Positions 1,147 to 45,728 of a stretch of 64,000 bases of DNA are shown in pieces. The DNA comes from an uncultured Gammaproteobacteria bacterium (GTDB lineage: Bacteria > Pseudomonadota > Gammaproteobacteria > DRLM01). The stretch is taken from positions 32,001-96,000 of the forward strand of contig CAVSNY010000005.1 of NCBI GenBank assembly GCA_963729605.1, written 5' to 3'. Positions within the stretch are counted from its first letter, which is position 1. Each line of letters starts with the position of its first letter. The position numbers and the translations under genes were made by a program. The notes under the pieces are model-generated. The model did no database searches, was not told where the DNA came from, and saw nothing but the letters and a program-made list of their open reading frames with translations.

Positions 1147-1349
1147 CCCCTCTCCCTCGCCCTCTCCCGCAAGGGGAGAGGGATAGAGGCCGGCAAACAA
1201 ATCGGCCCGGCATCATCGCCGTCGCCCGTATTAAGAACCTCTCTCCTTCGAAGGGAGAGCGCGGCGAAAGGGGCGAAGCCGCTTGCGGAGAGGGTGAGTC
1301 AATCATCAACGATACTGTCATTCGTCCCTCTCCCGCCCGGGGCGAGGGA
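1147..1349. repeat. Cluster of family-B palindromic repeats (CCCTCNCCCCNNCCCTCTCCC-loop-GGGAGAGGG)
   Basis: Full copy 1147-1182, inverted longer variant 1238-1298 and partial copy 1325-1349, all intergenic. Confidence 0.75.
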
Positions 1350-5578: not shown

Positions 5579-5623
5579 ACCACCCCGGCCCTGCGGGCCA
5601 CCCCTCCTTATGAAAGGAGGGGA
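5579..5623 (+). repeat. Family-A double-hairpin repeat (solo copy)
   Basis: ACCACCCC-GGCCC tgc GGGCC-A-CCCCTCCTT atga AAGGAGGGG. Confidence 0.9.
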
Positions 5624-5645
5624 TAAGCTCCCAAACAATCGACCG

Positions 5646-5729
5646 CCGCACCCATCACCGCACCCATCGCCGCACCCATCGCCGCACCCATCACCGCACC
5701 CATCACCGCATCCATCGCCGCATCCATCG
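5646..5729. repeat. 12-bp tandem repeat CCGCAYCCATCR x7
   Basis: Counted directly; gives the PHPS/GDGC repeats in the ORF track. Confidence 0.95.
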
Positions 5730-5890
5730 CCGCGCCTCACCGCGCCTATCACCACGTAAACAGCCTTGCGGGTGTCGCGGCCTCAGGAAACGATTCGCGC
5801 CTCGGTGCGGGAATTGACCTCGGTCTCGCGACGTTGATTCTTGTGCGCCGATGGCCTGCGTGCGTTCGATGCGCTGCCGCGCAACACATC

Positions 5891-6248
5891 AATGACTGAC
5901 GCCGCTTCGCATCTATCTCGGACTTCTCGCGCTGACATCGTCTCCCTTGACTCGTCGCGCATCCCCCGGCGGGGGTCGGGGTCTACCTCCATGAATTAAA
6001 TTGGCTGACTGCGCGGAAGGAATCCCCGCGCTTGTTCAAGGAGGAGAATCGCGACCGCCTCGCTACGCTAATGACCGACGCCGCTTCGCATCTATCTCGG
6101 ACTTCTCGCGCTGACATCGTCTCCCTTGACTCGTCGCGCACCCCCCGGCGGGGATCGGGGTCTACCTCCATGAATTAAATTGGCTGATTGCGCGGAAGAA
6201 ATCCCCGCGCTTGCTCAAGGGGGAAGATCGCGGCCGCCTCGCTACGCT
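5891..6248. repeat. 179-bp tandem duplication (2 near-identical units)
   Basis: Units start AATGACYGACGCCGCTTCGCATCTATCTCGG at 5891 and 6070 and both end CGCTACGCT. Confidence 0.95.
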
Positions 6249-8674: not shown

Positions 8675-8810
8675 CTCCCCTCCTTGAATAAGGAGGGGTG
8701 CCCCGCAGGGGCGGGGTGGTGGTGCGTTGCAGTAAACGCCCGCTCTTGCACCTCGCTGCGACCACCACCCCGGCGCTCGCGCGCCACCCCTCCTCAAAAG
8801 AGGAGGGGAG
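8675..8810. repeat. Inverted doublet of family-A repeats (L 8675-8720, R 8764-8810, 43-bp spacer); REPIN/MITE-like
   Basis: Same L and R variants and orientation as the pair flanking the DUF559 gene. Confidence 0.9.
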
Positions 8811-13901: not shown

Positions 13902-14777
13902 TCATGACGGCAGGTCCTCGGCTTCAAGCCGGAAGGGTCTCGGGGAGAAACCCAAATCCCGGGTCGCCTCGGCATGATCAAACACCAAATCACGATTCAT
14001 CCGTTCCGCCATCGCTATCGAGCAATGTCGATAGCGCGGTAACAAACGCAGACATTTTACGGCAACTCCAAAACTCCACAGCGGCACACTCAACAGCAAT
14101 GGCCGACGCCCCAGGGCGGCAAAAACTCTGTTAACCATCTCACGATAAGTCAGCGTTTCACCGCCTGAAAGATTATACGCACGAGACGACGCGCTTTCAG
14201 TTTCCAACGCGGCAAGACAAGCCCCCGCCACATCCTCGGCATGCACCGGCTGACGTAGTCCAGTGGCCCGACCCAGCAAGGGGAAGAATTTGAATCGGCG
14301 TATGAAGCGCGCAATCTCGGCAATGTTCTTGTCACGCCCCCGGCCATAGATCAGCGTGGGCCGGAGGATCACATACTCGACACCATTTTCATCCGCCCAC
14401 GATTGCAGGCGCGCCTCACACGCGGCCAAACGCCGAGCAACGGTTTGTTCCTCACTATCGGAGGAATCCTCCTTGGTAAATCGGCTGGTGGAGGACAGCG
14501 CCACGACACGCCGCGCACCGGACGCTTTCAGCCAGTCGAAGTAGTCGGGCAGCACCCAGATCGGTGCGACGCAGATCCAATTTCCAACCCCCTCTCCCCT
14601 GGCGTGAGAGGGTTGGGGAGAGGGGGCAATCTGTTTCCAGACTATATCCGGCCCCATCCGATCAACATGCCGCCGCGAAAACGCGGTCACTTGCCACCCG
14701 GCCCGAACCAACAACGGCAACAGGAATTCCCCGACTAAACTCGTCGCCCCAAGCACTCCAATTCGCCGTTCATCCAC
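13902..14777 (-). CDS. NAD-dependent epimerase/dehydratase family protein, carrying an in-frame palindrome
   Basis: GVLGATSLVG, LRPTLIYG, QPVHAEDVA, AYNLSGGE. Confidence 0.88.
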   Translation of the reverse strand: MDERRIGVLGATSLVGEFLLPLLVRAGWQVTAFSRRHVDRMGPDIVWKQIAPSPQPSHARGEGVGNWICVAPIWVLPDYFDWLKASGARRVVALSSTSRFTKEDSSDSEEQTVARRLAACEARLQSWADENGVEYVILRPTLIYGRGRDKNIAEIARFIRRFKFFPLLGRATGLRQPVHAEDVAGACLAALETESASSRAYNLSGGETLTYREMVNRVFAALGRRPLLLSVPLWSFGVAVKCLRLLPRYRHCSIAMAERMNRDLVFDHAEATRDLGFSPRPFRLEAEDLPS

Positions 14778-25820: not shown

Positions 25821-28800
25821 GACTTAGTATCCTTGTAAGCATGAGGCACCCACGCCCCCCACTTGGCCTCATAAATTTTCTTGTTGTCTTCAAACAATTT
25901 TTGCCGATCTTGCTGCTTCAGTTTGTCGAATGATGCCGAGAGTTGGTGATGAATAAACACATCTTCAGCACAAACCACGCGTAAACCGAGCTGTTCTATA
26001 CGGCGACAGTAATCGTCATCTTCAAAGAATCCACGGCCAAAGGCTTCATCCAATGTGCCGACGCGTTCGCAGGTTGCGCGGGGCATCATGACGCAGAAAA
26101 AAGCGGCAGTTCTTAGCGGGTAGGTTTGCCCAATACGTCGGCGCGTGTAGGTAGCCGACTTCAGGCGCATCTCGTCCATGCCATCGTAGGTAATATCTAT
26201 CTTGGCTTCATTGCCGATATTGTTCGTTACCGGGCCGATTAAACCGATGGTTTTATCTCGTTGAAGATGCCGAACGAGAGTACGAATCCAGCCGAGCGTA
26301 ACGTAGGTGTCGTTGTTGAGCAGTACCAAGTACTCGCCGTTAGCGACAGCCAGCCCCTGGTTGTTTGCCGCAGCGAAACCCCGATTATCGTCGTTGAGGA
26401 TCAGCCTTCGGTTCTGTCCATTCGCAACCCACTCGGACAAGAATTCCGGGGTGCCATCATTGGAGGCATTATCAACCACAATGATTTCCAAAGGTTCGTA
26501 TTGACTATATTTATCGATGCTTTCAAGACACGCGTGTGTGAGATCTATGTTGTTGTAGGTTACAACAATGACGCTTACTTTGACGTCGCGGGTAACCGAC
26601 TCGGCTTGCTCAATGAGCGCTTTGGCTCGGCGTTGCCAGGTTTGCCCTTGCGCGAAGACTTTGCGTTTTTGCACTAGAGAATCGGGCTCCGGTTGACTTA
26701 ATACTTTACTCACTGCGGCGAGGAAAGCATCTTTACCTGCCACTGCGTATACCAGGCCGTCAAACTGCGCCATCTCCGGCAAATCAACGGCGACAATGGG
26801 TTTACCAGAGCCCAGATATTCGTAGGCTTTGACAGGATTCGTGGCCAAGGTAAGCGGGATAATCTTAAATGGCAACAGACAGACATCGAAGCCATGTAGA
26901 TAATGCGGCAGCTCACTGTAGGGCACTTCACCCGTGAAAGTGACGTTATCTAGCTTTGCGAGCCTTGACTTCGCATTAACGGTATCCGCACCGACCAACA
27001 ACACAGAACAATCCGGATGCTGCCTGGCGACGGACTCAACCAGATCCAGGTCAAACCACTCGGCAATTGCACCGTAGTAGCCAATAACTCGACGCCCCCA
27101 CGGATCGTGATAGATGCTATCTGGCACTTTTGCAAAGTGCTCGTATTCACCTGCATTGCGGATCAGCGCACGATACTTGGCATGGGGAGTGATGGCGTCG
27201 TCCAGCCAGGTGGATGTGGTAATGGCCAGTTCCGCTTCGCTCAATAGTTGTTTCTCTAACTGCAGCAAGGATTCGGCATTATTGCCAAAGCCTTCGTGAT
27301 AATCCATGCAATCGTAGACCAGTCGGCTGTTGGGCAGCACAGAAGCCATGTCGTACCAAAAGGGATGATTAACCAGTGAAATGATCTGCCTACAATCCGC
27401 CCAGTCCAACACTTCACCGATGCTTCGTCTGAGCTGAGCAATGGTTTCCAGACTCGGGGCATCCGAATAAATGGGAGGTGCCCCCTTGGCAAACAACTTG
27501 ATCTGAAAAAGCTGGCCCGAAGCATCCAACGCCTCAGCCTCAAAGCCGGCACGTTTGTCATCCACCAATGCTGGTGAAATGTAGAAAACCCGCCGGCCTG
27601 CTGCAGCCAAAGCCAATGCTAATTGCTGAGGTCGCTGATGACGAAAATTCCAGTCGATGACGCCCCAAACAACATAGTCCGGCTTGTCGAATTGTTGAAC
27701 GCCCGGAATAAGCGTCGGGGCGTTGAATTGCAAAACCAGAGATGGACTACTTTGAATTGACCGGATGGTTTTAAGAACCAACTGATGATAGAAAAAACTT
27801 ACCTGTTTTTTTACAGGTGGGGACAGTGGTAGTTGGTGGTACCGATTGCGTAATGTTTTGGTTATCTGCCTTTGATCTTCGCTTGTGAGCCCGTAACGAA
27901 ATAGGCGAGCAACAAATCGCAAGGGCCGGGTAAGCCGCCAAGAGGCACTTTGCTTGATCAAACTAGCAAGTGCTACAGCACTGTCTCGCTCTGCCATAGC
28001 ACTGTCTCGCTCTGCCATAGCACTGTCTCGCTCTGCCATAGCACTGTCTCGCTCTGCCACAGCACTGTCTCGCTCTGCCAATTGTCGCAAACTCGCCACA
28101 TAATAATGGCGGTACGTTTCATCCATCAACTTACGGAAAACTAAGTCAGCCGCGGATTGGTCCATCTCACTAACTGGCGGGCTTATGGGAGAAAGGTGCT
28201 CACGTGTAGCAATTACAAATTGTCGATAATGGGGCGCATTGAAGTCAAGCGCATAGAGATCCAAATTAAATCTTTCACTTGCTTCCAAAACAATATTTTT
28301 AAGAACTGGAACATTCCATGCACAAACCACAAAGCCAAGAAGTTCCTGCAACCAAGGCGCATGACCATGGCCGATTGTTTGGCAATGCCAACCTAATCGG
28401 CCAAGATGCTCAACTACCCCAGCAAGAGAAGGGAGTCCAAAACTGCGGTGCTCCTCTAGCCAAGAATAATCACGTCCGAAAATGGTGCGGTATTGATCGT
28501 CAATAGCTTTGTCGGTCTCTAACGCATCAGATGAATCCGAAGTGGGGAAACCGAGAATTAAAGTGTTTTTGCCTAGTGACGACATCCGCTCCAAGAATGT
28601 CTTCCGATGTTCGGAAGGCACATGTTCCAAAACATCTACCGCAGACACGCAATCAAATAATTGACCGTCTAATTCACTGGCAAATACGTTGCCTGTAATT
28701 TTCCCCTGTCCGGAACCCCGTGGGATCAGAGGATCAACGTAATTCATCGAGGCATCCGGCATGAATTGGCCGAACAAGCACTCTGGACCACTGCCAATAT

Positions 28801-29735: not shown

Positions 29736-31118
29736 TTAAGCCAAAATAGAAAACTTCGTTGCCAATCGAATTGGTGTAAAAATTTTCTGGGTTGTCGTTA
29801 CTTCAAAAACAAAAGCATTCAAGATACGGTCTTGAATAATAGGCCCATCGCTTTCTGGAATTGATGAAACGCTAGGGGTCAATGAATAGTGGCCTGGATG
29901 TAACATGGGAACTGTGATCTCAATCGAAACTCGAAGCGAGTCACCTTGTGCTGGCGCAAGCATTTTTACCGAGTCAAACCATGTACTCGTACTTGCGATC
30001 TCAATTCCTTTATTATCACGCACAATATAACCACAACCAATATTTTGTCCGGGCGGGAAATTTTTATTTTTTATCTCTAACAGTAGACAAATCACCTCAT
30101 TCCAGTCGACTGTGCTAGTTGGCAGACCATTCACGTTAGATAAGCTCATGCCGGTCATTTCCAACTTTTGCTCCCCACAACGACCATCACCTATTGGTAG
30201 ACTTAATTTTGTTGCTGGATTTTTTCCTTCCGGAATAACCACAGCATGATTAGAACTATCTGAGTTGCTATATTTTTCGTTAAGACCAAACAAATATTGA
30301 AGGTATGCATCTGTTACAGCCGTAGCATTACCAACTAAAGTTAAGTTTCCATCTTTCAGCCACAATACCCTACTGCATAAACGCTTAACGGAGCTGGCGT
30401 CGTGGCTGACGAATATGATTGTTGTACCTTTTCTCTGAAGATCGTGAAAACGTGCCATGCAACGATGCACAAAATAGGCATCTCCTACGGCCAAGGCCTC
30501 ATCGACGATCAGAATATCAGGGTCAATATTGGCTTGAATAGCGAAGGCTAGCCGGACATACATGCCACTCGAATAGGTTTTCACCGGCCGGTTGATGAAG
30601 TCGCCAATATCTGCAAAGGCGGCAATGTCATTGAAGCGCGCATCCACTTCTTCCCGACTCAAGCCGAGCACGGCGGCATTCATGTAAACATTCTCTCGCC
30701 CGGTAAATTCCGGATTGAAGCCAGAGCCCAACTCCAACAGGGCGGCAATACGGCCACGGGTTTCCACAAAGCCCCTGGTAGGTGCCAGCGTCCCGGTGAT
30801 GATCTGCAGCAGGGTGCTCTTCCCGCTGCCGTTACGGCCGATGATGCCAACGGTTTCGCCTTTCTTGACCTCGAAGGAGACATTTTTCAGCGCCCAGAAT
30901 TCGCGGAAATACTGTTTGGGCGGCAAGCCGACAATGCGCTCCAGGCGCGGCAGTACAAACTGCTTGAGCCGATCCCGGGGTTGGTCGTAGATCTGATAGC
31001 ACTTACTCAAGTTTTCTACACGAATTGCAATGCCGTCCGTACCCGTTGCGGGCATATCTCCCTCACCCCGACCCTCTCCCGCCAGGGGAGAGGGTGAAAG
31101 ATTCATCTCAGAGGACAT
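29736..31118 (-). CDS. wzt: Polysaccharide ABC transporter ATPase with C-terminal Wzt_C domain
   Basis: GRNGSGKSTLL, YSSGM, ILIVDE, VSHD; MSSE start overlaps the wzm stop. Confidence 0.95.
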   Translation of the reverse strand: MSSEMNLSPSPLAGEGRGEGDMPATGTDGIAIRVENLSKCYQIYDQPRDRLKQFVLPRLERIVGLPPKQYFREFWALKNVSFEVKKGETVGIIGRNGSGKSTLLQIITGTLAPTRGFVETRGRIAALLELGSGFNPEFTGRENVYMNAAVLGLSREEVDARFNDIAAFADIGDFINRPVKTYSSGMYVRLAFAIQANIDPDILIVDEALAVGDAYFVHRCMARFHDLQRKGTTIIFVSHDASSVKRLCSRVLWLKDGNLTLVGNATAVTDAYLQYLFGLNEKYSNSDSSNHAVVIPEGKNPATKLSLPIGDGRCGEQKLEMTGMSLSNVNGLPTSTVDWNEVICLLLEIKNKNFPPGQNIGCGYIVRDNKGIEIASTSTWFDSVKMLAPAQGDSLRVSIEITVPMLHPGHYSLTPSVSSIPESDGPIIQDRILNAFVFEVTTTQKIFTPIRLATKFSILA

Positions 31119-33668: not shown

Positions 33669-33715
33669 ACCACCCCGTCCGCTGCGCGGCCACCCCTCCT
33701 TGAAAAGGAGGGGAG
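33669..33715 (+). repeat. Family-A double-hairpin repeat (solo copy), followed by a degenerate ~18-bp tandem repeat at 33735-33818
   Basis: ACCACCCCGTCCGC tgc GCGGCCACCCCTCCTT gaa AAGGAGGGGAG. Confidence 0.9.
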
Positions 33716-35451: not shown

Positions 35452-35496
35452 ACCACCCCGGCCCTACGGGCCACCCCTCCTTATGAAAGGAGGGGA
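35452..35496 (+). repeat. Family-A double-hairpin repeat (solo copy), near-identical to the 5579 copy
   Basis: ACCACCCCGGCCC tac GGGCCACCCCTCCTT atga AAGGAGGGGA. Confidence 0.9.
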
Positions 35497-35730
35497 TAAA
35501 ATCCCAAACAACAACGTGATCATGAATCCAATTCCGGAAGTGTCGCGATGTTTCGCGGCCCTCAGTAAACAATTCGCACCTCCGTATGCGAATTGAACTC
35601 GATCTCACGATCTTGATTCCTTTTGCCCAACATCCTGCGTCCGCCCCGATGCGCTATTACGCGGCACGTCAGAGGGCTACCACAATGACTGACGCCGCTT
35701 CGCGGCCTACCGCGGGCTTTTCGCTTCGCC

Positions 35731-36165
35731 TCGTCCCGCTTCGCCTCGTCCCGCTTCGCCTCGTCCCGCTTCGCCTCGTCCCGCTTCGCCTCGTCCCGCT
35801 TCGCCTCGTCCCGCTTCGCCTCGTCCCGCTTCGCCTCGTCCCGCTTCGCCTCGTCCCGCTTCGCCTCGTCCCGCTTCGCTTCGTCCCGCTTCGCTTCGTC
35901 CCGCTTCGCTTCGTCCCGCTTCGCTTCGTCCCGCTTCGCTTCGTCCCGCTTCGCTTCGTCCCGCTTCGCTTCGTCCCGCTTCGCTTCGTCCCGCTTCGCT
36001 TCGTCCCGCTTCGCTTCGTCCCGCTTCGCTTCGTCCCGCTTCGCTTCGTCCCGCTTCGCTTCGTCCCGCTTCGCTTCGTCCCGCTTCGCTTCGTCCCGCT
36101 TCGCTTCGTCCCGCTTCGCTTCGTCCCGCTTCGCTTCGTCCCGCTTCGCTTCGTCCCGCTTCGCC
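35731..36165. repeat. 15-bp minisatellite TCGTCCCGCTTCGCY x29
   Basis: Counted directly: 9 C-ending units, 19 T-ending units, then 1 C-ending unit. Confidence 0.97.
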
Positions 36166-37570: not shown

Positions 37571-38148
37571 ACCACCCCGGCGCTGCGCGCCACCCCTCCT
37601 TGGCAAGGAGGGGAGTAATTTGTGGTTGCACTGTCTCATCAATACTAAACCTGCTTATGTCGTTCCGGTCGTGGTTGCTCATCTCTCGTCTATTTCTTTC
37701 ATGTCGGCACCTTCCCGCACCGGCGCGTCTTCCCGGCCTGGAAAGGCTCAACCACCCCGGCGCTGCGCGCCACCCCTCCTTGGGAAGGAGGGGAGTAGTT
37801 TGTGGTGGCATTGCCTCATCAATGCTAAATCTGCTTATGTCGTTCCGGCCGCGGCTGCTCGTCTCTCGGCCATTTCTTTCATGTCGGCACTTTCCGCACT
37901 GGATCGCCTTCCCGGCCTGGAAAGGCTCAACCACCCCGGCGCTGCGCGCCACCCCTCCTTGGGAAGGAGGGGAGTAATTTGTGGCTGCATTGCCTCATCA
38001 ATGCTCAACCTGCTTATGTCGTTCCGGCCGCGGTTGCTGGTCTCCCATTTATTTCTCTCATGGCGGCACTTTCCGCACCGTCTTCCCGGCCTGGAAAGGC
38101 TCAACCACCCCGGCGCTGCGCGCCACCCCTCCTTGGGAAGGAGGGGAG
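37571..38148 (+). repeat. Tandem array of 4 family-A repeats with mutually homologous ~130-135-bp spacers (periods 180, 179, 174 bp)
   Basis: Repeat starts at 37571, 37751, 37930, 38104; spacers share CATCAATRCT, CTGCTTATGTCGTTCCGG and CTTCCCGGCCTGGAAAGGCTCA. Confidence 0.93.
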
Positions 38149-38279: not shown

Positions 38280-38838
38280 CTCCCCTCCTCTACGAGGAGG
38301 GGTGCCCCGTGAGGGGCGGGGTGGTGCGCTACGAAGTAAAGTGCTCGCGAATTACCACCAATACACCTTCCAAATTTTCCATGACCTCACGATTCTCAAA
38401 CCGCAGCACCCGCAGCCCCTGGGTCATTAAATAATTTGTCCGCGCGCTATCTCGCTGCCAAGCCTTCTCGCTATCATGTGCCGCACCGTCCAGCTCAATT
38501 ACCATACGCTCACCAGGACAGTAAAAATCCACGATATAGGGTCCGATGCTGTGTTGGCGGCGAAATTTTCTACCTGCAATCCGCCCACCTTGTAATTGTT
38601 TCCACAATCGCGCCTCGGCCGGCGTGAGCTGGGCTCGCAAAAATCGACGAACTGGCTTTAAGCTCTGTCGATTGTGAATCTTCATTTCATTCTCAAGTCT
38701 TCAGGCTACTTATAGTTCAGTAAAAGCAGAATGATTCCGCTCTATCCGCTAAATCGCTTTGGAAAGACCCGCATTACGGCAGCACTCGAGCAAACCACCC
38801 CGGCGCTACGCGCCACCCCTCCTTGAAAAGGAGGGGAG
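38280..38838 (-). mobile_element. Putative DUF559 element: L repeat (38280-38325) - endonuclease gene - R repeat (38794-38838)
   Basis: Inverted family-A repeats bracket the gene, 3 bp from its stop and 108 bp from its start; mobility is inferred, not shown. Confidence 0.6.
38329..38685 (-). CDS. DUF559 endonuclease-domain protein (Vsr-like, PD-(D/E)XK superfamily)
   Basis: LR...TPAEARLW..L, KFRRQHSIGPYIVDFYC, VIELDG..H, RD..R..YL..G.RVLRFEN. Confidence 0.92.
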   Translation of the reverse strand: MKIHNRQSLKPVRRFLRAQLTPAEARLWKQLQGGRIAGRKFRRQHSIGPYIVDFYCPGERMVIELDGAAHDSEKAWQRDSARTNYLMTQGLRVLRFENREVMENLEGVLVVIREHFTS

Positions 38839-39420
38839 AATTGATGGAGTAGGATTCCTGCGCCATCTTTACTCCTCTCTCCTCTCCTCTCCTCTCCTCT
38901 TCTTTTCTTTACTCCCCTTCTCGTCTTTACTCCCCGCGTCTATGAACATTGATTATTTCCCGAGAAATAATGATATGGAGCGCAGATGGTTAACCGGCTG
39001 GAAAGCTATATCCCAATTTTGAGATAGGTTCTAGATCAATGCTAAACCTGCTTAACTTTCTTTGCGAACCGCCCAAAACCTGCTAACTCGTCTCTTAATC
39101 CGCGCCAAGCTACCATCATTCCGCCATGCACGTCCTTACCCCGGAAGAAATGCATACACTAATCTGGGCCGTACCCAATCATTCTTCCGCCATCATCCTT
39201 GCGGCATTCTTGCACCATGCATTTTTCCACCATGCACGCTTATCTCTTATCCTGCCGTGCCTATATGCCATCGTCCTACTTGTTCCCACCGTCACGTCTT
39301 CAAACGGAGCGCGTCACTCGGGAGCAGTCACGCGGGTTGGTTTTCTCGCCGTATCGTCCTACTTGTTCGCACCCCGTCGCGTCCTCAAACTAACGAGGGC
39401 GGCAATTTGATGCCGCACGC

Positions 39421-41116: not shown

Positions 41117-41676
41117 CTCCCCTCCTTATCAAGGAGGGGTGCCCCCGAAGGGGGCGGGGTGGTTCGCGCCGTGCCTTTAAAAAACACCACCCCGGCGCTA
41201 TCGCGCCACCCCTCCTCGCTTGAGGAGGGGAGTGAGGAGACATGCGATCTTCATCGCGGGGGGAAGGCTCAACGCAGCAATTGCGAAACACCCCCTGAAA
41301 TCACAAAACACCGTCTGAATCTGAAAGGGGCAAGTACACTGCGTCAAACCCCGCGACCGAATCTCCCCTCCTTATCAAGGAGGGGTGCCCCCGAAGGGGG
41401 CGGGGTGGTTTACGCCGCGCCTTTAAAAAACACCACCCCGGCGCTATCGCGCCACCCCTCCTCGTTTGAGGAGGGGAGTGAGAGACAAGCAATCTTCTTC
41501 GCGCGGGGCGTCTGAAGCTGAAGGGGACAAGTAACAGTGCGTCATAAACCCCGCGACCGAATCTCCCCTCCTTCTCAAGGAGGGGTGCCCCCGAAGGGGG
41601 CGGGGTGGTTTGCGCCGTGCTTTAAAAACACCACCCCGGCGCTATCGCGCCACCCCTCCTCACTTGAGGAGGGGAG
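41117..41676. repeat. Three tandem inverted doublets of family-A repeats (BIME/REPIN-like array)
   Basis: L/R pairs at 41117-41232, 41363-41478, 41563-41676 with 20-22-bp spacers and homologous flanks; a truncated fourth unit resumes at 42964. Confidence 0.93.
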
Positions 41677-41715
41677 TGAGGAGACTTGATCTTGATCGCG
41701 GGGGAAGTGTAGTGG

Positions 41716-42923
<1,208 letters not shown>

Positions 42924-43066
42924 TCACCCAGAATCAGGTGGCCAAATCGACTATGCCACTACAACCCCTCCTCGCTTGAGGAGGGGAGTGAGGAGACAAA
43001 CGATCTTCATCGCGGAAGATGGCGGGGCAGAATGGCGGGAGAGAATACTCAGCTATTGCGAAACGA

Positions 43067-44561: not shown

Positions 44562-45728
44562 CTATTGATATTTTTTAATATTTAAATCGGATATAACAGA
44601 CAAATATTGATCAATGACAATCTGCTCATCAAATTCCCGTTCCATTTTTTCTCGTCCCCGGTGTCCCATCTCTGCCCGCGCCTCAGCTGAGAGCGTTATC
44701 ATTCGAATCATTTTCTCCGCCAAATCATTTGCATTTCTTACTTCGCACAAAAAACCATTCATTTCATCTTCTACTACTTCACGACATCCCACTGCATCCG
44801 TAGTGATGATAGGGCGCCTCAGCGCCGCGGCTTCCAGCAATGCGCGCGGCACACCTTCCCGAAAAGACGGCAACACCACGCAATCAGCGGTCTCGATGTA
44901 AAGCCTCACATCGTCACTTACACCGAGATAATTCACCACGCCTTCATCAACCCAGCCCTGCATTTGCTGCCGCGAGATCGCTGCCGGATTCTGCACGTCC
45001 AAAAAACCCAGCAAACAGAACTCCACCGCGGGATAATGACGCCGGACCTGCCGCGCCGCCTCCACATATTCCCCCACGCCTTTATTCCACAACATTCGCG
45101 CAACCAACAGAAAGCGGAAAGGTCCATCCTTCCCCCCTCTCCCGCGAGCTGGAGAGAGGTCGGGGGTGAAAGTGTTCGGAATTTCCACCATCGAAAACCG
45201 CTCCAGATCGATCCCCGATCCGGGTACGCGATCCGTCATCTCTGCCCGCACCAATCCACTCTCCACAAATAAACGCCGATCATCCTCGTTCTGAAAAAAA
45301 ACCCGTACCGAACGGCCCAATGCCAATCGATAAAGACCGCATACCACTTTAGTCAACCAACCATCTCGAATAAACACCGCGCCCAACCCAGCAATGTTAT
45401 TAATTACTGGAACACCCAAGGTATGGGCCGCCAGCGAACCATAGATATTGGGTTTTACTGTATAACCGAGAAACACGGTCGGGCGCTCTTTCCGCAACAG
45501 GCGATAAAAACGCCACAGCAGTAACATATCCCGCCCTGGATGCGTGCCCTTGTTGTCCATGGGTAACGGTACATAACGGCAGCCGAGTTCAATAAGCCGA
45601 GGTGCGTATTCGTCGTACGGAGCGACAGCCACGACTTCATACCCTTCCGCCACCAGGGCACGAATCAAACCGGCGCGAAAGTTCACCAGATTCCAGGCCG
45701 CATTGAGCGCGATCATCACCTTTGGCAT
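44562..45728 (-). CDS. GT4 glycosyltransferase (CapM/WbnE-like), carrying an in-frame palindrome
   Basis: NFRAGLI, YTVKPNIYG, FFQNEDD, GSGIDL, LPSFREGVPRALLEAA; TGATG overlap with asnB. Confidence 0.92.
   Translation of the reverse strand: MPKVMIALNAAWNLVNFRAGLIRALVAEGYEVVAVAPYDEYAPRLIELGCRYVPLPMDNKGTHPGRDMLLLWRFYRLLRKERPTVFLGYTVKPNIYGSLAAHTLGVPVINNIAGLGAVFIRDGWLTKVVCGLYRLALGRSVRVFFQNEDDRRLFVESGLVRAEMTDRVPGSGIDLERFSMVEIPNTFTPDLSPARGRGGKDGPFRFLLVARMLWNKGVGEYVEAARQVRRHYPAVEFCLLGFLDVQNPAAISRQQMQGWVDEGVVNYLGVSDDVRLYIETADCVVLPSFREGVPRALLEAAALRRPIITTDAVGCREVVEDEMNGFLCEVRNANDLAEKMIRMITLSAEARAEMGHRGREKMEREFDEQIVIDQYLSVISDLNIKKYQ

What the first reader, a model, noticed from the sequence alone, without database searches (positions are those of the whole stretch)
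38280..38838. DUF559 endonuclease bracketed by inverted double-hairpin repeats: candidate RAYT-independent REP-like mobile system
Seen: an intact 118-aa DUF559 gene sits between an L repeat ending 3 bp from its stop codon and an inverted R repeat 108 bp upstream of its ATG. The same ~45-bp repeat occurs 17 times in full plus once truncated in this window (5579, 8675, 8764, 33669, 35452, 37571, 37751, 37930, 38104, 38280, 38794, six in 41117-41676, partial at 42964), as solos, inverted doublets and tandem arrays. Established: this solo/doublet/array organisation is what REP, REPIN and BIME elements show around RAYT (HUH Y1) transposases. No RAYT is present in the window. Inference: the Vsr-like nuclease recognises and nicks the hairpin and spreads it, giving a selfish nuclease-repeat system. 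I recall palindromes beside DUF559 genes in other genomes but know of no mechanistic description.
Basis: partly seen in the sequence, partly recalled or inferred. Interest (0 to 1): 0.88.

Follow-up and report, generated by a model that had tools for sequence, protein, structure and literature searches.

The report
Nuclease gene paired with triplex repeats
A small DNA-cutting enzyme gene sits between two inverted copies of a repeat shaped to fold into a three-stranded DNA structure, and across many bacteria the enzyme type matches the repeat type scattered through the genome, which makes it the candidate enzyme behind a repeat family unexplained since the 1990s.

Summary
Observation confirmed: an intact 118-aa DUF559 gene (38329-38685, minus strand) lies between inverted 47-bp repeats. 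The window has 17 full copies plus one truncated; the genome has 77.

The repeat is not a REP. It is a hairpin plus a mirror copy of its purine arm, the BoxC/PIT/TM intrastrand-triplex design, here with a second hairpin in the linker; the third strand co-varies with the stem.

Evidence for pairing:
- 186 of 202 DUF559 genes have such a motif within 250 bp (26-fold over distant flanks).
- Repeat type follows protein clade.
- In 300 genomes, 45 of 81 with the gene carry a dispersed family versus 6 of 219 without.
- 1 of 35 Y1/RAYT loci has the motif; this genome's RAYT has a GTAG REP.
- Caulobacter VsrA, a DUF559 protein with a published DNA-damage phenotype, ends inside such a repeat.

Against: repeats persist in some genomes lacking the matching gene, no target-site duplication was detected, and cutting or movement is not shown.

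Best reading (0.55): a Vsr-fold nuclease nicks at folded triplexes and host repair spreads them. This scan noted the pairing before on other DNA; my ten paper searches found no account.

The parts
38329..38685 (-). DUF559 (YcjD-like) Vsr/EDxHD-fold endonuclease gene, 118 aa, intact; putative catalytic E24, D53, E64, D66, H70, D79
   Evidence: pN 0.044 vs pS 0.159 against the 92% identical L066
38280..38326 (+). Downstream repeat, C-subtype. On the + strand: pyrimidine arm 38282-38290, loop, purine arm 38294-38302, T, inner hairpin 38304-38317, third-strand tract 38318-38326 pointing at the stop codon
38793..38838 (-). Upstream repeat, T-subtype, inverted. Purine motif on the - strand: main hairpin 38816-38836, inner hairpin 38802-38814, third-strand tract 38793-38801 pointing at the gene
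37571..38148 (-). Four tandem T-subtype copies at a 174-180 bp period; the relative G001 has two here
41117..41676 (.). Three inverted T+C doublets in a BIME-like array; not seen at the matching place in G001 or G002
42964..42988 (-). Truncated copy (main hairpin only) abutting the end of an IS3 element
8675..8810 (.). Inverted T+C doublet with the same end arrangement as the gene cassette, 45-bp spacer
5579..5624 (-). Solo copy
33669..33715 (-). Solo copy between rfbD-like and rfbC-like ORFs, shared with G001
35452..35497 (-). Solo copy

Best explanation
The gene and its two repeats are the autonomous part of a chromosome-bound nuclease-repeat system. SHOWN by comparison: the repeat is built as a purine-motif intrastrand triplex (hairpin, linker, antiparallel G/T third strand); its stem code is matched to the clade of the neighbouring DUF559 gene; the gene occurs in 1-4 copies per genome examined here while its repeat reaches tens to hundreds; gene and repeats have moved together between unrelated sites. 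INFERRED: when the purine strand is single (lagging strand, transcription, incoming DNA) it folds, and the Vsr-fold enzyme binds that fold with clade-specific read-out and nicks next to it. The enzyme has no HUH/tyrosine or DDE chemistry, so it cannot join strands itself; host break repair (template switching, gene conversion, end capture) copies the ~50-bp motif, T+C doublets and, rarely, the whole cassette to new sites. Repeats outlast loss of the gene.
For: 186 of 202 genes have a motif within 250 bp, 4.1 vs 0.16 per kb in distant flanks. Both flanks are the same class in 89 of 102, shuffled mean 30, max 49. Tree changes: 47 vs 95 shuffled for stem class, 25 vs 54 for linker class. In 300 evenly drawn genomes, 45 of 81 with the gene vs 6 of 219 without carry >=5 B/C-type repeats; CMH within 14 families p=8e-8. 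The window's repeat type has >=11 copies in 10 of 17 hosts of its clade, and 0 copies in 20 of 20 B-clade hosts and 19 of 19 gene-less genomes. Starting from the repeat, 8 of 127 metagenome loci hold a DUF559 gene, the largest recurring protein cluster. This genome has both pairs, each gene with only its own repeat type. Third-strand covariation and purifying selection. In-frame cassettes in BioF, HsdM, HsdR, PglX, IcmF; free cassettes beside unrelated genes. The VsrA orthologue ends inside such a repeat.
Against: No biochemical or in vivo test. Repeats without a matching intact gene: G002 61 copies (contig breaks at this locus), G012 19, G020 12, G141 39 B-type; G360, G369, G373 have 9-18 B-type copies but only an A-type gene. 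7 of 17 hosts of the window's clade have 7 copies or fewer. No target-site duplication signal and no clean filled/empty allele pair between close relatives, so no insertion event is dated or bounded. Gene and own flanks co-vary by linkage alone, and kin are not independent. E. coli ycjD is single-copy at one site (3,378 of 5,426 genomes), and some ycjD-less strains keep 11-19 BoxC places. 16 of 202 genes have no motif.
Confidence: 0.55

Rival explanations
1. Domesticated triplex resolvase. The enzyme cuts or unfolds triplex roadblocks and is kept because the genome is full of them. Repeats spread by their own instability, and the gene's flanks are inherited or regulatory.
For: Low copy number, purifying selection, rarity on plasmids (48 of 72,556) and phages (3 of 50,697), fixed single site in E. 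coli. PIT elements block polymerase in vitro (PMC4666352, passage).
Against: Does not explain why gene and repeats move together into coding genes in frame, or why some hosts have the gene with only its own 1-4 flanking copies. Genomes with many repeats and no gene found exist.
Confidence: 0.22
2. Solitary very-short-patch (T:G mismatch) repair enzyme working with a cytosine methyltransferase, as proposed for Caulobacter VsrA. The repeats are incidental.
For: Vsr-like fold and active-site residues. VsrA causes an SOS response only when ScmA is absent (PMC12907096, passages). None of the 80 repeat matches listed for G531 contains YGCCGGCR, read by eye, so that phenotype is not obviously repeat-mediated. 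Several cassettes lie in or beside DNA methyltransferase genes.
Against: Gives no reason for 26-fold motif enrichment, clade-matched stem codes or genome-level co-occurrence. The paper states VsrA's activity and specificity are unproven. No methyltransferase adjoins this gene.
Confidence: 0.11
3. Passive cargo. The repeats are ends of a MITE-like or IS-derived unit moved by another transposase (RAYT/IS200, ISL3 or other), and DUF559 is a passenger.
For: Inverted ends extend a little beyond the hairpins (4.4 vs 3.5 shuffled). T+C doublets look like gene-less cassettes (30 of 31 inverted neighbours are unlike subtypes). An earlier scan note called such a cassette ISL3-type (not reproduced here).
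Against: 1 of 35 Y1 loci has a motif within 700 bp. G001 has 28 copies and no Y1 gene found. No other protein family recurs beside the repeat. No target-site duplication. Dispersed copies share only a median 7-10 bases beyond the core.
Confidence: 0.09

Closest known systems
BoxC / PIT / TM_ECO intrastrand-triplex repeats (Holder et al. 2015, PMC4666352; earlier work cited there)
   Same: Class II purine-motif design (Y arm, R arm, antiparallel G/T strand), intergenic, solos and inverted doublets of two unlike subtypes. The genome's second family matches the TM_ECO consensus 44 times. E. coli ycjD has one TM_ECO 168 bp past its stop.
   Different: Stem code CCCCTCC instead of CCCTCNCCC, and a 13-16 nt hairpin in the linker, longer than the 1-6 and 0-10 nt loops of the two published searches. 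The paper reports no linked mobility gene; 'ycjD' and 'nuclease' occur 0 times in its main text.
REP / REPIN / BIME with RAYT (REPtrons, TIRtrons)
   Same: Low-copy chromosomal enzyme gene bracketed by repeats that occur in tens to hundreds elsewhere; solos, doublets of unlike subtypes, arrays; rare on plasmids.
   Different: The enzyme is a Vsr-fold hydrolytic nuclease, not an HUH Y1 transposase; no GTAG or CGTC tag; three-stranded design; the gene also relocates and enters coding genes in frame.
EDxHD homing endonucleases (I-Bth0305I, PDB 3R3P) and Vsr
   Same: Same fold (Foldseek E=6.6e-5 to 3R3P, 0.016 to 1VSR) and the same set of acidic and His residues; selfish use of this fold is established (PMC3239194, passages).
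   Different: No NUMOD/HTH DNA-binding domain, no intron or intein, no adjacent methyltransferase; paired with a dispersed repeat.
Caulobacter VsrA (CCNA_02930) and E. coli YcjD, Neisseria NGO0050 (PDB 3HRL)
   Same: Same Pfam family; 3HRL is the best structural match (E=9.5e-8). The VsrA orthologue's stop codon lies inside a double-hairpin triplex repeat followed by an inverted copy.
   Different: Different clades with different stem codes. In the passages read, published work treats VsrA as a mismatch-repair enzyme and YcjD as unknown, with no mention of the repeats.

Membership tests
DUF559 / PF04480 (YcjD-like) | Score above the curated cut-off over the whole domain | tested here: met
   112 bits vs 20.6, profile 7-106 of 109; below the E. 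coli YcjD equivalog cut-off, 87 vs 218
Vsr/EDxHD nuclease fold | Fold and conserved E...D...E-x-D-G-x-x-H...D residues | tested here: met
   Model pLDDT 93, matches 3HRL, 3R3P, 1VSR; E24, D53, E64 in 202 of 202, D66 199, H70 201, D79 201 (numbering there is one lower)
Vsr/EDxHD nuclease fold | Nuclease activity and substrate | not testable with these tools
   needs purified protein
BoxC/PIT/TM triplex repeats | Hairpin plus antiparallel mirror of the purine arm (class II) | tested here: met
   9 of 9 triads in both flanking copies; 314 of 425 asymmetric arms reach >=8 triads antiparallel vs 107 parallel and 75 with swapped flanks
BoxC/PIT/TM triplex repeats | TM_ECO sequence consensus with 3-nt second loop | tested here: not met
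   no match in the finding's locus L002; matches only family-B copies
BoxC/PIT/TM triplex repeats | Physical triplex formation | not testable with these tools
   ViennaRNA shows only the two hairpins; shown in vitro for TM_ECO, not supported in vivo (PMC4666352)
REP/REPIN with RAYT | HUH Y1 transposase flanked by the repeat | tested here: not met
   the genome's one Y1 gene has a GTAG REP and no A or B motif; 1 of 35 Y1 loci from 11 genomes searched has a triplex motif within 700 bp
REP/REPIN with RAYT | Terminal GTAG or CGTC tag | tested here: not met
   3 and 8 of 77 copies have such a word within 14 bases
REP/REPIN with RAYT | Solo, doublet and array organisation around a low-copy chromosomal gene | tested here: met
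   23 solos and 31 inverted neighbour pairs among 77 copies; 48 plasmid and 3 phage records
IS / MITE (DDE, incl. ISL3) | Target-site duplication | tested here: inconclusive
   73 cassettes: direct match 3.73 vs 3.44 shuffled (max 3.75); 3 of 73 have >=7 bases; old insertions and uncertain ends weaken the test
IS / MITE (DDE, incl. ISL3) | Transposase in the element and shared long ends among dispersed copies | tested here: not met
   only PF04480 and MTES_1575 hit the ORF; median shared flank 7-10 bases
EDxHD homing endonuclease | Separate DNA-binding domain and residence in an intron or intein | tested here: not met
   118-aa single domain, intergenic; no Rfam match near gathering score
Vsr very-short-patch repair | Linked cytosine methyltransferase gene | tested here: not met
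   neighbours are an NAD-dependent dehydratase (rfbB-like) and manC; an unlinked partner, as in Caulobacter, was not tested

The most novel reading that the evidence does not exclude
DUF559 proteins are structure-reading nucleases that recognise intrastrand DNA triplexes by a stem code and propagate them: a second REP/RAYT-like system built from a Vsr-fold nuclease with no transposase chemistry. It would account for BoxC/PIT/TM repeats across many phyla, for proline/glycine-rich repeat-derived inserts in proteins, and possibly for part of the VsrA phenotype.
Probability: 0.5. Interest if true: 0.92.

Novelty: categorically new. Interest (0 to 1): 0.82.

Why it matters
BoxC/PIT/TM repeats have been known since the 1990s, are tied to local genome instability, and have no known mobiliser (PMC4666352). 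DUF559 is a widespread nuclease family with no shown substrate. Pairing them gives both a testable partner, in E. coli K-12 (ycjD) and Caulobacter (vsrA) where mutants are easy or exist. If true it would show bacteria making and reading triplex DNA in vivo, a route of repeat spread without a transposase, and a 118-aa structure-specific nuclease with natural specificity variants. The class 'categorically new' applies to the gene-repeat pairing; both parts were known separately, and the layout parallels REP/RAYT.

Tried and rejected
RAYT or IS200 as partner: rejected.

Target-site duplication: not detected.

Clean empty site: the rfbB-manC gaps of G004 and G005 hold other triplex-type repeats (C and B type) and are too diverged to bound an insertion; G002's contig breaks there. 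ycjD-less E. coli alleles carry a TetR/RND (eef) operon, so they are not empty sites (PMC12817139 passages). bioF alleles give states, not boundaries.

ScmA sites inside Caulobacter-type repeats: none seen in 80 listed matches (by eye).

Structured RNA: two Rfam hits far below gathering score. tRNA site: none. Promoter or terminator role: one weak promoter-like hit at chance level; 8 terminator-like hits vs 2.0 shuffled, 6 of them on three tandem copies, not evidence of function. Defence gene: only weak PADLOC hits.

Single-sequence structure prediction failed (pLDDT 47); the alignment-based one was used. The CIR paper (PMC166474) is not held, so CIR identity with these repeats is untested. 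The neighbour-gene control for pN/pS failed to anchor. No complex prediction was run.

Full report
1. OBSERVATION. The ORF 38329-38685 (-) encodes 118 aa and scores 112 bits on PF04480. It lies between an rfbB-like dehydratase gene and manC in a polysaccharide cluster. The repeat at 38280-38326 ends 2 bases before the stop codon; the inverted one at 38793-38838 starts about 108 bases upstream. The window has 17 full copies and one truncated copy beside an IS3 end. The genome (3.48 Mb, 94% complete) has 77 full copies in 39 clusters, 23 of them solo; three shuffled genomes give none.

2. WHAT THE REPEAT IS. On its purine-rich strand it reads: pyrimidine arm, loop, purine arm, T, small hairpin, then a G/T tract that mirrors the purine arm (G against G, T against A). 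That is the class II purine-motif intrastrand triplex described for BoxC/PIT/TM_ECO (PMC4666352; I read the abstract, the first part of the text, sections 15, 18 and 19, and passages). The name was first recalled, then checked there. Two tests support the third strand. In this genome the ninth stem pair and the ninth third-strand base change together: 43 copies A/T/A, 26 C/C/G, 8 other, of 77 (two subfamilies, so not independent events). Across 425 asymmetric hairpins near DUF559 genes, picked without a third-strand filter, 314 have 8 or more antiparallel triads, 107 parallel, and 75 on average when flanks are swapped between hairpins. The inner hairpin has 31 sequence variants; all but 2 (5 copies) keep a 4-7 bp end-to-end stem in my simple test. 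The motif does not match the TM_ECO consensus, and its linker is longer than the loops allowed in the two published searches. Inverted neighbours pair unlike subtypes in 30 of 31 cases and same-direction neighbours like subtypes in 7 of 7, as Holder et al. report for TM_ECO types A and B. Dispersed copies share a median of only 7-10 bases beyond the core, with 25 or more in 6 (5') and 11 (3') of 77, so the usual unit is the ~50-bp motif.

3. THE PROTEIN. The alignment-based model (53 sequences, pLDDT 93) matches 3HRL, the homing endonuclease I-Bth0305I catalytic domain and Vsr; the profile search finds 3R3P at E=1e-4. E24, D53, E64, D66, H70 and D79 are kept in 199-202 of 202 homologues. pN is 0.044 and pS 0.159 against L066. 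No HUH or DDE family is hit and there is no separate DNA-binding domain.

4. GENE-REPEAT LINK. Of the 80 closest relatives (best of 546 confirmed), 77 have a pyrimidine/purine hairpin within 250 bp. I then pooled 281 loci: those 80, the top-scoring loci regions I picked from their lists, and others held. They gave 218 near-full hits and 202 after removing duplicates. 186 of 202 have a three-part motif within 250 bp, 112 on both sides, 16 on neither; density is 4.1 vs 0.16 per kb in distant flanks. In 73 of the 112 the third strands point inward, as here. Both sides share a class in 89 of 102 classifiable pairs. On a FastTree of 105 columns (weakly resolved) stem class needs 47 changes against 95 shuffled (minimum 86, 181 rows) and linker class 25 against 54 (186 rows). 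The window's protein falls in a 15-row clade whose members all carry its repeat type. Linkage alone can give this, so I counted genome-wide copies.

5. GENOME-WIDE COUNTS. The window's type has 11-115 copies in 10 of 17 hosts chosen for this flank type, 1-7 in the other 7, and none in 20 B-clade hosts or 19 genomes without a DUF559 hit. The B type has 10 or more copies in 19 of 20 B hosts and occurs in 1 of 19 gene-less genomes. The short-linker A type has 10 or more in 14 of 14 Hymenobacter hosts, and also occurs in 3 of 20 B hosts that hold several DUF559 genes. In an evenly drawn set of 300 genomes, 45 of 81 with a strong DUF559 hit and 6 of 219 without have 5 or more B/C-pattern copies (odds ratio 44; CMH over 14 families p=8e-8). 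I transcribed these tables by hand, and the pattern misses other stem codes. Starting from the repeat, 8 of 127 metagenome loci contain DUF559 and the next protein cluster covers 3. This genome holds both pairs: this gene with A repeats only, and a B-clade gene inside bioF plus a remnant with B repeats only. Its RAYT carries a GTAG REP, and 1 of 35 Y1 loci has a triplex motif within 700 bp.

6. AGAINST. G002 (61 copies; contig breaks at this locus), G012 (19) and G020 (12, a broken remnant) have the window's repeat with no intact matching gene found; G141 has 39 B copies and no gene; G360, G369 and G373 have 9-18 B copies but only an A gene; 6 of 14 Hymenobacter genomes hold 2-15 long-linker A copies. 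No duplication signal was found at 73 cassette ends. E. coli ycjD is single-copy in nearly all of 3,378 of 5,426 genomes and has a clear TM only downstream. In a spread sample, 18 strains with that locus have 13-27 BoxC places and 12 without have 1-19, which is confounded by phylogroup. Cross-phylum labels in the clade come from MAGs; L083 and L092 share neighbours and may be mislabelled. Kin are not independent.

7. MOVEMENT. Cassettes of this clade sit between uvrC and uvrA, between BREX brxC and pglX, after a DISARM-like helicase and between dehydrogenases; other clades are read in frame within or fused to BioF, HsdM, HsdR, PglX, IcmF, RecO and MurB (17 of 202 lie in ORFs of 330 aa or more). 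At the bioF site within one family, 3 genomes have the cassette, 1 a solo repeat, 1 a decayed one, 1 an apparent deletion scar and 5 nothing, of 11 read. The cassette at this locus is shared with G001, with two instead of four tandem copies. The family is rare on plasmids (48 of 72,556) and phages (3 of 50,697), as the abstract of PMC5581495 describes for RAYTs in being housekeeping-like (outline and abstract only).

8. A LINK TO A PHENOTYPE. PMC12907096 (passages and supplement look-up) shows that the DUF559 protein VsrA causes an SOS response in cells lacking the methyltransferase ScmA, and proposes mismatch repair without proof of activity. Both published vsrA primers match locus L283 in G531; the gene's stop codon lies in the third strand of a double-hairpin repeat followed by an inverted copy, and that genome has 80 matches to two related patterns. 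None of these contains the ScmA site (read by eye), so the phenotype need not run through the repeats. The scan's notes held nothing on this link.

9. MECHANISM. Most likely (0.55) the enzyme binds the folded single-stranded motif, nicks beside it, and host repair copies the motif, doublets or the cassette. The pairing and the co-movement are shown by comparison; binding, cutting and copying are inferred. A T opens 66 of 83 long linkers and could form a T:G pair with the first G of the third strand, the lesion Vsr reads; this is speculation and short-linker forms lack it. Rivals: domesticated triplex resolvase (0.22), solitary VSP repair (0.11), cargo of another transposase (0.09).

10. NOVELTY. 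Ten library searches (DUF559, ycjD, COG2852/PF04480, BoxC/PIT/triplex, RAYT/REP, CIR, Vsr with palindromes) listed no paper whose title or abstract joins the gene to the repeats. Most hits were seen as listings only; I read passages of PMC3239194, PMC1189080, PMC3733652, PMC12817139 and PMC2229807. Subscription journals, bioRxiv supplements and the supplements of PMC4666352 were not seen and could bear on this. This scan recorded the pairing on other DNA at least eight times; those notes came after my own note of the triplex reading and are not independent support. One calls the cassette ISL3-type, which my duplication test does not back. One of the 202 loci (L021) and one of the 61 genomes come from the unpublished genome G050; no claim depends on it.

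11. VERDICT. Real, non-random and general: a Vsr-fold nuclease family paired, clade by clade, with triplex-type repeats. It is organised like REP/RAYT but meets the defining tests of no known mobile family. Interest 0.82.

Noticed in passing
L001:718-2535 (G000:C7): bioF carries an in-frame B-clade DUF559 cassette with repeat-encoded Pro/Gly linkers, 605 aa against about 390; relatives show full, solo-repeat, scar and empty states.
   Followed up: partly
L003:1450-1725 (G000:C3): Remnant of a DUF559 gene (C-terminal 31 codons) between B-type repeats; full genes with near-identical downstream flanks occur in G003 (L017).
   Followed up: partly
window 41708-42963: IS3-family element, three copies in the genome at 99.9-100% identity; its two flanks do not rejoin to one repeat, suggesting an adjacent deletion.
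   Followed up: partly
window 1148-1182, 14590-14625, 31060-31094, about 45120-45160: B-type (TM_ECO-like) repeats; some are read in frame in an ABC-transporter ATPase N-terminus and a glycosyltransferase.
   Followed up: partly
window 35546-35750 and 5773-5957: A second dispersed ~170-200 bp element, with further copies on C3, C4, C7 and in G001 and G002, often next to the T-subtype repeat; unexplained.
   Followed up: partly
window 38937-39034: A ~97-bp dispersed element with 6 further hits in the genome at 83-92% identity, several close to A-type clusters.
   Followed up: no
window 35720-36165, 27971-28101, 5634-5748: Long minisatellites (15-bp unit about 30 times; 21-bp and 12-bp units); two of them lie just beyond solo repeats, which may mark local instability.
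   Followed up: no
L005:16-565 (G000:C7 start): RAYT-like Y1 gene with a GTAG REP just downstream; only 6 matches to my REP pattern in the genome.
   Followed up: partly
L072, L077, L098, L152, L204, L216, L257, L260, L020: DUF559 cassettes lie often in or beside restriction-modification, BREX and DISARM genes; enrichment was not tested.
   Followed up: no
L045, L170, L171: In E. coli, ycjD and the eef efflux operon occupy the same fabI-sapF site as alternatives.
   Followed up: partly
L457 (G368:C39): The one Y1 locus with triplex motifs nearby: three F-type copies and one A-type copy 190-410 bp from the match.
   Followed up: no
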